A stretch of 64,000 nucleotides of DNA from Haliotis cracherodii (lineage: Eukaryota): positions 68,076,001-68,140,000 of the forward strand of contig NW_027266297.1 of assembly GCF_022045235.1 (NCBI RefSeq), given 5' to 3'. Position 1 is the first letter of the stretch, and each line of letters opens with the position of its first letter. This document shows positions 26,860 through 46,300 of the stretch, in pieces. Made by a program: the position numbers and the translations under genes. The notes under the pieces are model-generated. The model did no database searches. It was not told the origin of the DNA and worked only from the letters and a program-made list of their open reading frames with translations.

Positions 26860-27300
26860 TGTTGTCGCTCCAGTTGATAACGGTGTACGAATCTACATCG
26901 AAACGTCGCTATATGTAATAAACCAGAACTTGTTATCCATAAAGTTGCACGTTTTCTTAGATATCATATTCTTCTGCCTAATGCCTGCAGTTGAAGGGAT
27001 GACTCGGTTTAGATAATACGTTTCATTGAGTGTTCTCTTGTGCAGTATACCTGTTTATCCTGCACAGTTGTCCAGTAATAGTGTACGTGTATAATATATG
27101 CCCATATATTTAATCACTTTCATATCAAGGAAGAGAATTTATGGATGTTAACTTGTTTATTAGGAGGGTTTTGGATTACATTGTATATGCTTACTTCCTT
27201 GTCGATAAGCATGTACTCCGAAACGTTGTGTTCCTCATAATAAAGAAGTTGACATCCATATATTCTCTTCCTTTTGTGTATCACTTCTAAATGCCTTTCA
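26860..27300 (+). mobile_element. Degenerate Penelope-like terminal relics in the CMPK1-STIL intergenic region
   Basis: TTGATAAC-GGTGTA...TACATC-GAAACGTC...AATAAA (26874-26922) and CCGAAACGTTG...AATAAAGAAGTTGACATCCATA...ACTTCTAAATGCC (27218-27295) both resemble the arm at 41819-41925. Confidence 0.65.
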
Positions 27301-40300: not shown

Positions 40301-43300
40301 CAAGGTCCTGCAAGACAGGTAGGTCACATTGCTTATTAAAGTCGGACTAGAGATAAAACATCCAACAATGTGTTGTCATTATCAGATAAATGTGGATTAC
40401 AAATACGATATGAAGAAAGTAGTTGCTCTTCCTTCATTTATGTTGGGGGGGGGGGGGGGGGGGGGGGAGACATTTTCATGCATCTGATTCTGCAAATGGT
40501 TATTTACTCGTACAATTTTTTTTTAATTTTATAAGTGTTAACAGCATTTCTGGCTACATGTTCTGGACTATAACCTGGCAATTCTACTAGCTAATATAAA
40601 TGAGAACATTTTCATATCTTTAAGTTATATTTATGGTGTAGGCAAAGTATTTAATGCCTACCTGTGTGGTTTTGGGCTGACATTGATTTGATCTGCCTTG
40701 TAGGGTGTGTAGTCCGCCGGAAGGGTTCTTAGTGGTGCTTTACAGCCCACTCCATTCTCGTCCAGAGTTCTATGATTGCAACACTACCACTGGAAACAAC
40801 AAGCTCAGCTTTGACCTGTATGGTGGATATGAAGCAACAAACCTCAACACAGTAAGACATTTCTTTCATGAATTATATACCCTGTGGCAACCCTGGGTTA
40901 GACTAGGTACCTAACAACCTGTGCTGGTGACCAAGTGGATTGGGTTGTCAGACTCGGTGACTTCTGTGATTGCATGTCATGGTACCCTGATAGTCGACCG
41001 TTTATCACAACATAGATCACTGGAATGTCCAGAGTGAGGCATTAAACAACAACAAACAATCATGAATCATAGCTGTTTTGTTATCAGTGATTTGTAGTTA
41101 TCTTCTTTCATGATCACTTTCTGATAGAAAACGTCAAACCAGTTAGGTACCTACCTCATCCCATTGGTCAGACTGTTAGTCCAGCTGAACATGCACAAAA
41201 CTGGGTTTGATTCCTCACATTGGTAAATGTTGTCCCTGCTAAGATATATGACAAAAGAATGAATAAAAAATAGAGCTGACTTGAGTCCGCAAATTGATAT
41301 CCAGTAATCATGGTATGATAGAGATTAGACTGGATACACTGGGGACAAGAGACTGATGGTCAGTGTGTTGCCTTGTAGAGTTCCGTGAGTCTACAGAATG
41401 GCCTGCTGGAGTGTGAGCTGACCAGTGTCCAGCAGGGGAAGAAGCGGGAATTGTTTGATGCTGCCCTCACCCACTGTAAACAGCCAATGTGAGTTGGAGT
41501 TGCTCTTATACATAATACCTAGATCCCTGTGTTGAAAATATGGAACAATCCTTGGTTATTGGTTTGTGTTCATATCAGTCCAGTCAGAGTGAGAAAATTA
41601 AGAAAACCATCACGACTAGGTATCTACTAATGTTTTTAACAAAAATAAAGGGTTTAACTGGGTCACTGCTTCCAAGTTTTGTTTAAAGATGAAACATTTC
41701 ATGTTTTCAGCCTTGATCATGTTGATGTAGCAAGACGATTTCTATGGATGAACAACTTCTTTATGACAATTAGTGCGACGTTTCGGTGTAGATCCTAACA
41801 CCTTTATCAAGTCACTTGCTTGATAAAGGTGTTAGGATCTATACCGAAACGTCGCACTAATTGTAATAAAGAAGTTGTTCATCCATAGAACTCGTCTTAC
41901 TTCATCACACCAACTTCTAAATGCCACTTAAAGAAGACATGTTGATGTAGTTCTTAATAGTCCTAAGCTTGTCCACCTTGATGTTAAGATTTACATTCTT
42001 ATTATTTTGTCATGTTGTGAAAACTAGTATAGATGAGTGTTTATGTTGAAGCAGGAGTGAAGTGTGTCCTCAGACCCAGAAAGAAGAGCGTGGTACAGGT
42101 TCAGAAGATATTGTGCCCAGATCAATGCCAGCTCCACATCAGGCCAGGGTAAGCCTAGACAGTGTTAGAGACTAAGCGATGTTCTAGGGTCTTTGAGTTT
42201 GGTTTTGTTGTAGTATGTCAGTCCAAAGACCCCCTAAAATGAAGTTGTGTCAGGTCCAGCTGAAGAAATAATTGTTCGAACCAGTTACAATGCAGACCCG
42301 TTCGCACAGCGCCCACATGACCACGGAAGTGATGACATCACTATGTTCATATTACTGGTTGTCACCAGACTGACTGTTCAACAAATTTGTCCAGCAAATT
42401 TGTGTTACCTGTTTTTTACATTGTTTATGAATATATGTGAATATCTCCTATCATCGAGTTGGTGTTTTCATGTTCTACCATGTATTTTTGCCAGAGCATT
42501 AATATTTTTAATGTGAGGGTGACTTGTCATCGTAATTCTTATGTGGTTTGTTGTTCCTGTCAGCCATTTTGCGTGGTATTGTACATGGAGGCACGTGTTT
42601 TCTGTGCTTATTTATGGATTGGTATTGCTTACCTAAAGCCTCTCCTTAGCTTCTAACTTGTGTTTACATGTTAAACAGCATCACTGTAATCCTTAAACCC
42701 TACAAATTGGGTTCAAACATTGGATTATTATCCCTTATATTTGAGTTCATTTGGTCGTTGCAACTTCTGCTTTGATTGCAGATTTATGTTTGCCTGTTGC
42801 GTCCATTGTTGTGGAAAAAAGTCATTTGAGGACCATCACCCACTGTGTCTTGATTGTACTGGTATCTGTTTGATGGGACAGAAGTGTCACTTTTGTTCTG
42901 CATTATCCCCGCTTTACCTGCTTTACCAAGTATATCCAGGTATCCAGAAAGCGCCTTGCACAGCAGCCCCTACGGCACAAAAAGATGATGTTGGACTCAC
43001 ATGAATCTGTTGTTCAGGAGACGCCAGAGACCCCTTTTGTTGTGTCCCAGCTGTCGATCTTTGTTTTGATTCTCTAGAAGGACTCGGACAAGATGTGAAT
43101 GATACACAATCTAACCATATTCAACAAGCTATACCTAGAACGTCCTCCATACTTCCAAATGACAACTTTAAGACTGCTCAGGACTAGAATCAAGGCCAAC
43201 GATTACCTGATCACTCTTGATTTGCAGGATGTGTACCTGCATGTATCTATCCATCCCAGCGACTGCCGATTCCTCGGGTTCCAATTCAAAGGTGTCCACT

Positions 43301-46300
43301 ACCAATACGCAGTTGTCACAATTGGCATTTCAGGGGCCCTGTGGCTATTTACTTGCAACACCAAGCCAGTGGCCTCCTACCTCCACCTGATGAACATTCG
43401 GTTCCAATTCTACATAGACGATTGTCTACTGAGCCATCTGGGTTGGTGACCCTGCTCCTTCGCCAGGATTTATCAGGTGTCTGTTCCATCAGCATCAGAA
43501 GGCCAAGTTTCATCCACCCGCATGGGATCTGAACGTGGTACTTCGGTTTCTGCATTTCAAGCCTCTCCATGTAACTTCCTTCTTTAACCTCACCAAGAAA
43601 ACGATCTTCCTCTTAGTGTTGGCTACAGTGGGAAGGGTCAGCGAGCTACATGCACTCAACATTACCAGTGTTCGCTTTTAGCACAGAGCAGGGAGCAATT
43701 CACCTCGGACAACCTGACAGGTCCTTCACCATACGACCTCTCTCCTCAATTGTGGGCTTTGAAGATGAAGAACTAAGTGTTTTTATCCATTGCGCCAGGA
43801 CTCTATGTGGTGCCCGAAAACGGCTGTTCGTTCACGTCTTCTAGACATCAATGACTGAAGTCAGCCACAATATCATATCCCTATGGTTACGTGCCATCAT
43901 CCTTCAGTCGTATGAGGCCGCTGGCCTTCATCCTCTTGAGTCAACAATCATGAGATCTGGCAGTCGCCTCTATGATGGCTCTCCACTGTAATTGCTACAT
44001 CAGAACCATCATGGAAGGATGCTTTTGGAGATCTGACCTGAGGGACATGGCCTTGAAAGACGTCAAAGGTGTACACAGTTTTGGTCCTCGGGTCCTCCGG
44101 CAGGTCACCAATCCTATATGCCAATAACATCTCCATCTGTCCAGAGCCAGCACTGGCCCAGTAAGTCAGTTTTCATACTCGAGGGCAAGCTGTTTTCTAT
44201 TGCTGCATTTTACCTGGACCTCCTTAAACTATTGTTCTTTCCGCGGACAGGATTGGAAAAGTGGCTGCCAATCTTCATAAGTCATGTACTGGACAGCTGT
44301 CTAGACGTTCCCTGGACCACATCTGAAAATATGCCCACCACCGTACAGAGTAATGCAGGATAAGTTAGAAACAATTTAAGTAAAATCTAAATATATTTTT
44401 CACATTTGTATATTTATCCTGCATTACTACGTCTAAGGGCCCACCCTTCGCAGATCTGCCGCCCCACCCTTCGCAGATCTGCCACCCCACAATGTCTGCA
44501 GATGTTATGATTCAAGAAGCAATGTGAAGTTACGTGACGTCCTCACTTCCGTTGGCGCTGTACGATGAGGTCTGGGCTTTTTCTTCAGCTGGACCTCACA
44601 CAGCTTTGTTTTTCTGTCAAAAGAAAAATATTTAAATTTTACTAAATTTGTATAGTAGATTAATATAAACATGATAAAGTAATAGATGGTATATAAAAGA
44701 AAATGTTTTTCATAAATTGTTTACTTGATGTTAATTAATGTTTTTCAAAATTAATGGTAACAATGTTTACATTTTCAGATGTTTTCAGCACAGCCAATGG
44801 TACCCGAGGTTTCTTTGTATTTTCCTGATTCTCCATCACAAAATATGCCATCCACTCTTCGATCAGAGGCTGGGAAATCTCATGGTCAGGGTCCTAACAA
44901 GCACTCACAAGTGCCACAAGACTTGGTCAGGCATATGACGTTCAGTCCTCCTGTGACACCAAGAAATGGTGTTGATGCTGATCCCTCCACTCCCAGGAGC
45001 CTTCCAGAGATGTCACACAGTGGGATACCCCGACCACACAAACATGTTGCATTTACCAGGGTGGATGAAGAGTCTCAGCCAAACTCTATTCCACCTTCTC
45101 AGGGTCACAGAATGATGAATGGAGGTCACAGTGTTAATATGGGTGGTGTAATGCATGGACAATACTATCAGGGTCCCTACATGCAAAATGGACATCAGCA
45201 GCAGAATTCTGTGCCAAGTGGATGTGAAAATAATGTTCAGGGTTACAATCAAGCTGAGCAGTATAGGCAGTGTACCAAACAGGGTGTGGTTGATGCCAGA
45301 ATGACTCAACATGTTCAGAATGCATATGTTAACCAAAGTGTCCAGGATTTAAACATTAACCAGAACTGTTATCCACACAATCAAACAAGACATTTGAATG
45401 GAAATGCTCCACAGCATTCTGTTATACCTCCTCATCAGTTAAATAGTGCTCTTCCCCTCCCACATGTACAGCAGCCCTCTCACAAGCCCCAACCTACAGC
45501 CCAGCAAACCAGCATTCCACCTTCTGGGCCTCACCTACCCCACCAGAGCGTGCCTGTACCCCAGGGGTATCACCCCCAGCCAACACAGCCTCCATCTGCT
45601 CCACTCTCAGCACCTACCTCGGCTTCCAGTGTACCCACTCAATACACACAACTCAATAGTGCTTTTACTCCTAACCCTCACCAAGGAGGGCTTATACCTC
45701 ACCACCCCCAGCAAGTGACAGGGTATCCTCCCCAGCAGAATCTGCTTGGTTTTGTACCTCAGCTCCAGACTTCCTATTCATCTAGTCGAGTTCACACAGA
45801 AAGCACTTGTAGTGGTAAATCTAGTGATGACAGTGGTCTTAGTGTCACACCAGACAGGTCCAACCCATCTCCTAAAACAGGCAGCCCCAACACACCAGAC
45901 AAGACCAACTCTAATCTCCCATCTGGGATAGACACTATAAACTGGGAACAGGTTCCCCCTGAGATCTATCAGTTAATCTTGGCCCAGAATGCTCAACTTC
46001 AGCAACTACAAACTCAGATGCAGCAGCTCTTGAAGCAACAGTCGCCTGTCGAGACTACACCAACACCACGCACAGTTCAAACGGAATCTGGGATTGGGGT
46101 GTCACCAAGTACAAGAGAGACATGTGAAACAGCTGTCAACACAACACTGTTCTTCCCCAGCCCTGGAGAAACCACGCTTCGCCATGGTGTCCAATCAGTG
46201 TCCATGCAGACCAGTCCAGTAAAGACAAAATCACCACAGTCTTCAACGACGGTCCACCATCAACAAGGACCAGAATCCCAGCCCAGCAGCTCCACACAAA

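What the first reader, a model, noticed from the sequence alone, without database searches (positions are those of the whole stretch)
41718..41950. Inverted-repeat Penelope-type insertion carrying a U3-A8 covariant hammerhead core
Seen: two near-perfect 80-bp inverted arms with a 7-nt spacer and a 13-bp TSD. The right arm reads UGC-UUGAUAA-A-GGUGUuAG(gau)CUAUACC-GAAA-CG-UC|GCA, followed by AAUAAA. Known: the hammerhead core CUGAUGA has a tertiary C3-G8 pair that tolerates U3-A8 covariation. Penelope-like elements carry minimal hammerheads with very short palindromic stem III (here ACGU) that cleave as dimers, and they often insert with inverted ends. Inference: this is a fairly young PLE terminus with a variant ribozyme on the STIL sense strand, about 120 nt upstream of exon 11's acceptor. 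In the pre-mRNA the long hairpin would probably sequester the ribozyme and create an ADAR or Dicer substrate.
Basis: partly seen in the sequence, partly recalled or inferred. Interest (0 to 1): 0.7.

Follow-up and report, generated by a model that had tools for sequence, protein, structure and literature searches.

The report
Penelope stub; ribozyme cuts recorded genome-wide
This 220-base hairpin in an intron of the STIL gene is an ordinary, recent stub of a Penelope-type jumping gene whose self-cutting RNA motif is a published variant and is predicted to be locked away here, but across the genome a small class of copies of this family begins exactly at the predicted cut site, which likely means the ribozyme does cut in the germ line.

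Summary
Observation confirmed. 41731-41950 is a 220-bp insertion with a 13-bp target duplication; a related organism holds the empty site. It consists of two head-to-head copies of the terminal repeat of a high-copy family that carries an RT + GIY-YIG ORF elsewhere, so it is a Penelope-like element stub. One arm bears the 34-nt tail and one does not, as in 63 of 66 classifiable pairs. The U3-A8 minimal hammerhead is a published variant (PMC4209133) and is predicted to be fully paired in the hairpin. No RNA data were available.

The more interesting result is genome-wide. Most arms start at a TATA/Inr-like site, but a minority start exactly at the first base after the predicted cut: 32 matches (24 loci) against 2.4 per upstream position, repeated in a sister subfamily. 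Head-to-tail arrays of the predicted 43-nt 5' product also exist. This likely records in vivo cleavage, which I did not find in print; stalling of the reverse transcriptase is not excluded. This scan has noted the same patterns before on other DNA.

The parts
41718..41730 (.). Target-site duplication, left copy (13 bp)
   Evidence: family mode 12-13 bp
41731..41811 (-). Inverted, tailless arm of the terminal repeat (about q5-q86; q1 = 41815). It carries the hammerhead core on the minus strand but keeps only 1 bp of helix I
41812..41936 (+). Direct arm of the terminal repeat with tail (q-2 to q122)
41812..41816 (+). Initiator-like TCACT; likely transcription start, where most arms of the family begin. 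It forms the hairpin loop here
   Evidence: 33 of 86 arms start at q-4..+3; TATA-like box about 35 nt upstream in longer copies; the same arrangement is described in PMC3846280
41817..41856 (+). Minimal type I hammerhead: helix I 41817-19/41854-56, U3-A8 core 41820-26, extra base 41827, bulged helix II 41828-45, GAAA 41846-49, palindromic CG, predicted cut between 41853 and 41854
   Evidence: a private C-to-T at 41842 turns a G-C pair into G-U
41865..41870 (+). AATAAA, part of the family sequence; paired within the hairpin here
41903..41936 (+). 34-nt Penelope tail between the two preferred 3' ends; holds the ORF's ATG (41921) and first five codons
   Evidence: ORF start seen in L215
41938..41950 (.). 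Target-site duplication, right copy
41489..42054 (+). Host STIL intron (about 565 nt; 345 nt without the insertion)
   Evidence: boundaries inferred from splice signals and reading frame

Best explanation
This is a recent, non-coding stub of an endonuclease-bearing Penelope-like retrotransposon, likely made when both nicked strands of the target each primed a short reverse transcript, and its hammerhead is predicted to be inactive here. Shown: family identity, target duplication, empty site, and the pairing of one tailed with one tailless arm. Inferred: the element's protein nicked the two strands 13 nt apart; one 3' end primed at the tail site (q122) and the other at the tailless site (about q88), the two start sites known in vitro for an anole element; each copy ran to the RNA's 5' end at the initiator-like site and the two were joined head to head. 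Inferred for the family, not for this copy (about 60% likely): in the germ line the hammerhead sometimes cuts the element's RNA, and both products can be copied, which leaves about 4% of arms starting exactly at the cut. This copy starts at the likely transcription start, so it came from uncut RNA. In STIL pre-mRNA it would form an 80-bp hairpin with no shown role for the host.
For: Family: at least 739 and 1051 exact matches to two 20-21-nt patterns, 0 for reversed controls. RT ORF (RVT_1 E 6e-8) with a GIY-YIG-type C-terminus (weak hits: Pfam GIY-YIG E 0.014; group I intron endonuclease E 0.003) directly upstream of the same end. Of 111 loci, 74 are head-to-head pairs; 63 of the 66 classifiable pairs join a tailed to a tailless arm (binomial P 7e-16 against even odds), and 50 of 74 have an 11-15-bp duplication. 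The two arms often have very different 5' starts (for example L061, L070, L074), as independent priming predicts. 5' starts of all 86 contig-1 arms: 33 at q-4..+3, 8 at q12-36, 25 at q37-53. Genome-wide, of 94 matches, 32 (24 loci) start at q40 against 26 over q29-39 (hand count); sister subfamily, 100 of 168 listed: 21 at q40 against 31 over q29-39. Arrays of a 43-nt unit from the initiator to the cut site: L292 (at least 12 units) and L295 (at least 5), and a single unit in L284. Two-strand nicking and extension and two RT start sites bounding the tail are reported in PMC11167929.
Against: No RNA or biochemical evidence was obtained. The downstream control is not flat: positions q44-57 average about 6 starts each and peak at about 15 when scaled to the genome (100 of 152 listed), so q40 exceeds the highest downstream position only weakly (Poisson P 0.05). 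5 of 32 and 6 of 21 q40 calls are ambiguous because of CpG decay. Only 3 (4 with an ambiguous one) of 13 loci where a unit restarts at the initiator end exactly at the cut (P 0.07 or 0.014), and two other arrays end at q35-36. Helix I is only 2-3 bp and shows no compensatory change; overall covariation does not beat shuffles clearly (30 of 500, 9 sequences). Rfam gave no hammerhead match at E up to 10. PMC11167929 found no RNA-seq reads ending at the cut site, and cleavage was not needed for insertion in vitro. The transcription start is inferred from motifs and junctions only.
Confidence: 0.75

Rival explanations
1. The inverted arm arises by fold-back self-priming of one cDNA or antisense template, and the tailless end by endonuclease resolution, as proposed in PMC3846280 and PMC8557442.
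For: In this copy both arms start within 7 nt of each other, forming a hairpin with a small loop. The tail/tailless pairing is also compatible with a fixed resolution cut. Palindromic junctions are described in PMC3846280.
Against: Many pairs have arms with 5' starts tens to hundreds of bases apart, or with unrelated DNA between them, which a single fold-back does not give. The junction here shows no terminal complementarity for priming (sequence). Both ends are RT start sites in vitro.
Confidence: 0.2
2. The pile-up at q40 comes from the reverse transcriptase stalling at the folded hammerhead, or from microhomology and AT-rich joining, not from RNA cleavage.
For: Helix I's 3' strand is q40-42; starts are also raised over q44-57; some q40 junctions share a G, or in one case GCA, with the partner arm.
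Against: The peak is one base wide (q39: 1 and 1; q40: 32 and 21; q41: 7 and 9) in two subfamilies whose sequence differs just downstream. Units that end at the other side of the same bond also exist. A stall would be expected at the 3' edge of a helix (q42-43 or q31-32), not at the scissile bond (inference).
Confidence: 0.35
3. The hairpin is a miniature inverted-repeat DNA transposon (MITE or foldback element).
For: Short, non-coding, long inverted arms, target duplication.
Against: The arms are the 3' end of RT-encoding elements, end at two different sites, and vary at their inner ends; 37 of 111 loci were not scored as head-to-head pairs.
Confidence: 0.02
4. The insertion has become a regulator of STIL (RNA editing, small RNAs, early polyadenylation or self-cleavage of pre-mRNA).
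For: Sense-strand hammerhead and AAUAAA in a short intron, about 117 nt before an acceptor; 80-bp hairpin with a longest perfect run of 25 bp.
Against: The insertion is young, absent in a related organism, one of many such pairs in this genome, and both signals are predicted to be paired. No sign of selection was tested or seen.
Confidence: 0.05

Closest known systems
Insertion units of endonuclease-bearing Penelope-like elements (Adineta vaga Pen2a_Av, PMC3846280; general scheme in PMC8557442; passages read)
   Same: Head-to-head inverted pLTR, optional 31-40-bp tail at one end, target duplication, TATA plus TCACT initiator-like motif, first codons of the ORF inside the terminal repeat.
   Different: Here the unit is cut down to two short arms with no ORF body; the duplication is 13 bp (family 11-15) rather than 8-10.
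Minimal hammerheads of metazoan PLEs: U3-A8 variant of Schistosoma mansoni Cercyon; Drosophila virilis-type variant (PMC4209133, parts 1-2 of 4 read)
   Same: U3-A8 core, extra base between positions 9 and 10.1, G10.1-C11.1 pair, long helix II, palindromic positions 15.2-16.2; a bulge in helix II and a 2-3-bp helix I as in the D. virilis type.
   Different: It combines the U3-A8 core with the bulged helix II and very short helix I; whether that combination is in the paper's supplements, or in Lunse et al. (not held), I could not see.
Poseidon element of Anolis carolinensis in vitro (PMC11167929, parts 1-2 of 4 read)
   Same: Two RT start sites that bound the tail; nicking and extension of both strands; hammerhead near the ORF start.
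   Different: That study found no RNA ends at the hammerhead cut site and did not analyse the 5' ends of genomic arms; here the ORF starts 67 nt downstream of the cut rather than inside the ribozyme.

Membership tests
EN+ Penelope-like element (insertion of) | Family ORF with RT and C-terminal GIY-YIG endonuclease upstream of the same terminal repeat | tested here: met
   L031/L040, L215 and related subfamilies; endonuclease profile hits are weak; the ORF body is absent from this copy
EN+ Penelope-like element (insertion of) | pLTR holding a hammerhead motif and the ORF's first codons | tested here: met
EN+ Penelope-like element (insertion of) | Adjacent inverted 5'-truncated copy and 30-40-nt tail at one end only | tested here: met
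   this copy, and 63 of 66 classifiable pairs
EN+ Penelope-like element (insertion of) | Target-site duplication with an empty site | tested here: met
Penelope/Poseidon clade within PLEs | Placement in an RT tree; no Zn-finger-like linker between RT and EN | tested here: inconclusive
   No tree was built; no CxxC-type linker is visible by eye in the translations
Minimal type I hammerhead (min-HHR) | Conserved core with a 3-8 pair (U3-A8), GAAA and a UH cut site | tested here: met
   core invariant except position 7 in 9 of 9 aligned sequences from three subfamilies and one older copy
Minimal type I hammerhead (min-HHR) | Helix II with G10.1-C11.1 and covariation | tested here: met
   98% of cells paired, one compensatory pair (G-C to A-U in 3 sequences of one subfamily); not clearly above shuffles
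Minimal type I hammerhead (min-HHR) | Stable helix I (4-5 bp in the published consensus) | tested here: not met
   3 bp here, 2 bp in most relatives, 63% of cells paired; this matches the published D. virilis-type variant instead
Minimal type I hammerhead (min-HHR) | Self-cleavage as a dimer or with protein help | not testable with these tools
   only indirect junction evidence
Rfam hammerhead families | Match to a curated covariance model | tested here: not met
   no hammerhead family among 8 matches at E up to 10
Non-LTR retrozyme | Tandem units each with a complete hammerhead on one strand | tested here: not met
   one complete motif on the + strand, partner inverted
MITE / foldback DNA transposon | Symmetric terminal inverted repeats with fixed ends, unrelated to an RT | tested here: not met

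The most novel reading that the evidence does not exclude
The minimal U3-A8 hammerhead of this Penelope family cuts the element's RNA in the germ line, and the genome keeps fossils of both products: arms that begin at the first base of the 3' product, and tandem arrays of the 43-nt 5' product. Together with the near-obligate pairing of a tailed and a tailless arm, this gives a two-primer, run-off model of Penelope integration that can be read from genomes alone.
Probability: 0.6. Interest if true: 0.65.

Novelty: new member of a known kind. Interest (0 to 1): 0.45.

Why it matters
The locus itself is ordinary. [quoted passage not shown] If the q40 peak records cleavage, it is indirect in vivo evidence that these minimal ribozymes work, that cleavage is a side path (about 4% of arms) rather than a required step, and that counting junctions is a cheap way to score ribozyme activity in any genome. 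I found no such analysis in seven literature searches; most subscription journals are not held, and the supplements of the cited papers were not read.

Tried and rejected
Rfam: only chance hairpin matches. One search was swamped by a sister subfamily and not used for counts. Sequencing runs: no RNA holder listed, so editing, small RNAs and expression are untested. The raw DNA runs X19 and X20 gave almost no depth on the unique flanks (about 1 in 100 reads read), so no genotype within the species; one other sample of the same organism (X2) holds both junctions. A second lay of reads to count starts at the cut site was dominated by sister subfamilies and showed only single contig joints to 41854: uninformative. 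A 175-nt tandem array on contig 23 lacks the hammerhead core pattern, so it was rejected as a retrozyme. The idea that the LINE found upstream of the hammerhead is strictly site-specific was rejected: 3 of 30 unselected copies lie there. A PDB sequence search gave only weak RT matches. Lunse et al. could not be read. My notebook figure of 23 arms at q37-53 was a miscount; one search gives 25.

Full report
1. Observation. The sequence is as described. Arms 41732-41811 and 41819-41898 pair at 77 of 80 positions around a 7-nt loop, far beyond chance (z -21.6). A 13-bp direct repeat flanks the unit, and a contig from a related organism lacks exactly the 220 bases and keeps one copy of the repeat. 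The host gene is STIL on the + strand; the intron runs about 41489-42054 by splice signals and frame. Below, q counts from 41815 = q1.

2. What it is. The right arm plus its extension is the end of a dispersed family: 1602 first-look candidates, and 739 and 1051 exact matches to two short patterns with none for reversed controls. At L031 the same end follows an ORF with an RT domain (RVT_1) and a GIY-YIG-type C-terminus (weak profile hits). L215 shows the ORF's start: its ATG lies in the last 16 nt of the window's right arm. Three subfamilies (about 95%, 70% and 60% protein identity) carry the same U3-A8 hammerhead after their ORF. This is the textbook layout of an endonuclease-bearing Penelope-like element: pLTR, inverted 5'-truncated partner, optional tail and target duplication (PMC3846280 and PMC8557442, passages).

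3. The hammerhead. Folded alone, the right arm gives helices I and II of a hammerhead (-7.0 kcal/mol). In context every core base is predicted to be paired with the left arm (unpaired probability 0.003 or less). Across 9 sequences the core is invariant apart from position 7; helix II is 98% paired with one compensatory pair, helix I is only 2-3 bp, and covariation does not clearly exceed shuffles (30 of 500). The U3-A8 change, the extra base after A9, the palindromic 15.2-16.2 positions, and the bulged helix II with very short helix I are all described in PMC4209133 (parts 1-2 read). Rfam does not detect it. The two cores of this copy are on opposite strands, so the tandem dimer cannot form here.

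4. How the unit likely arose. 3' ends are bimodal, near q88 and q122. Among 111 loci drawn in genome order from two pattern lists, 74 are head-to-head pairs. Of the 66 with both ends classifiable, 63 join a tailed with a tailless arm, 2 are tail-tail and 1 is tailless-tailless; 8 were unclassifiable; the set includes this locus and two duplicated loci. 50 of 74 have an 11-15-bp duplication. PMC11167929 (parts 1-2 read) shows that a Poseidon protein nicks and extends both strands and starts reverse transcription at two sites that bound the tail. The simplest reading (inferred) is that each nick primes its own cDNA, one from each start site. Arms of one pair often start far apart, which a single fold-back does not explain. 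5' starts of all 86 contig-1 arms cluster at q-4..+3 (33), on a TCACT about 35 nt behind a TATA-like box, the promoter layout noted in PMC3846280. I infer run-off at the transcript's 5' end. The window's copy (starts q-2 and q5) is of this commonest class.

5. A second class starts at the predicted cut. In one search, 25 arms start at q37-53 and only 8 at q12-36 (a few of these are internal deletions). A genome-wide pattern that displays the letters at q26-40 gave 94 matches, classified by hand: q40, 32 (24 loci; 5 matches ambiguous); q41, 7; q29-39, 26 in all; 20 point mutants or longer arms and 9 internal indels were set aside. A sister subfamily, 100 of 168 listed: q40, 21; q41, 9; q29-39, 31; 39 set aside. 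Poisson P against the upstream mean is 1e-14 and 8e-6; against the downstream mean of about 6 it is 4e-7; against the highest downstream position (about 15, 100 of 152 listed and scaled) it is only 0.05. So there is a one-base peak at the scissile bond with a downstream shoulder, in roughly 4% of arms. Many q40 starts are joined head to tail to another element fragment, as template jumping from a 5' end would give. Units ending on the other side of the bond also occur: of 13 loci where a unit restarts at the initiator, 3 end exactly at q39, two of them as arrays of a 43-nt unit, and a fourth is compatible (P 0.07 or 0.014); two other arrays end at q35-36. I put in vivo cleavage at about 60%; stalling or joining bias remains possible. 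An A precedes G40 in 21 of 32 and 17 of 21 junctions, which I cannot explain; oligo(A) tails were not found.

6. Consequences for STIL. None is shown. No RNA run was on record. The insertion is young (1-2 private changes per arm) and absent from a relative. ADAR or Dicer action on an 80-bp duplex is plausible from general knowledge but untested.

7. Literature and earlier notes. Seen: PMC4209133 parts 1-2 of 4; PMC11167929 parts 1-2 of 4; PMC8557442 passages and section 15; passages of PMC3846280, PMC6765202, PMC8782182 and PMC2377424; part 1 of 5 of bioRxiv 10.64898/2026.07.22.740005. Lunse et al. was seen only as a citation. No supplements were read; those of PMC11167929 and PMC4209133 may bear on novelty. 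Seven searches showed no report of genomic junctions at the cut site. After reaching these results I found that this scan's AI notes describe the same patterns in other genomes, and the LINE hotspot in this one; they are not independent evidence.

8. Verdict. The feature is real and correctly read, a new member of a known kind. The locus alone merits low interest; the family-wide junction record raises it to 0.45.

Noticed in passing
L003, L034, L038, L051, L060, L239, L245, L257 and others: A LINE with RNase H and a (TAAG)n or (TCAG)n tail (at least 3598 exact matches) repeatedly sits about 14 nt upstream of the pLTR's initiator, in the same orientation and in all three subfamilies. 3 of 30 unselected copies lie there: a strong hotspot, not strict targeting.
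   Followed up: partly
L292 (G000:C12, about 6,570,000) and L295 (G000:C12, about 76,130,000): Minisatellites whose 43-nt unit equals the predicted 5' cleavage product, from the initiator to the cut site.
   Followed up: partly
junctions listed: The base just before the cut-site G is A in 38 of 53 junctions; possibly an untemplated addition; unexplained.
   Followed up: partly
L002, L009, L155, L162, L168, L181, L182: Short head-to-tail tandems that jump from about 40 nt inside the ORF back to the initiator, often placing two hammerheads about 170-230 nt apart on one strand, where dimers could form.
   Followed up: no
window 26866-26941 and 27208-27295: Two older, diverged relatives of the same terminal repeat; the first keeps the U3-A8 core.
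   Followed up: partly
window 43099-43680: RT-like reading frames (RVT_1 E 6e-7 at about 43105-43446) inside the next STIL intron: a different, broken retroelement.
   Followed up: no
L169-L180 (G000:C23, 58,766,600-58,768,750): A 175-nt tandem array from the pLTR/ORF-start region of the third subfamily, without the hammerhead core.
   Followed up: partly
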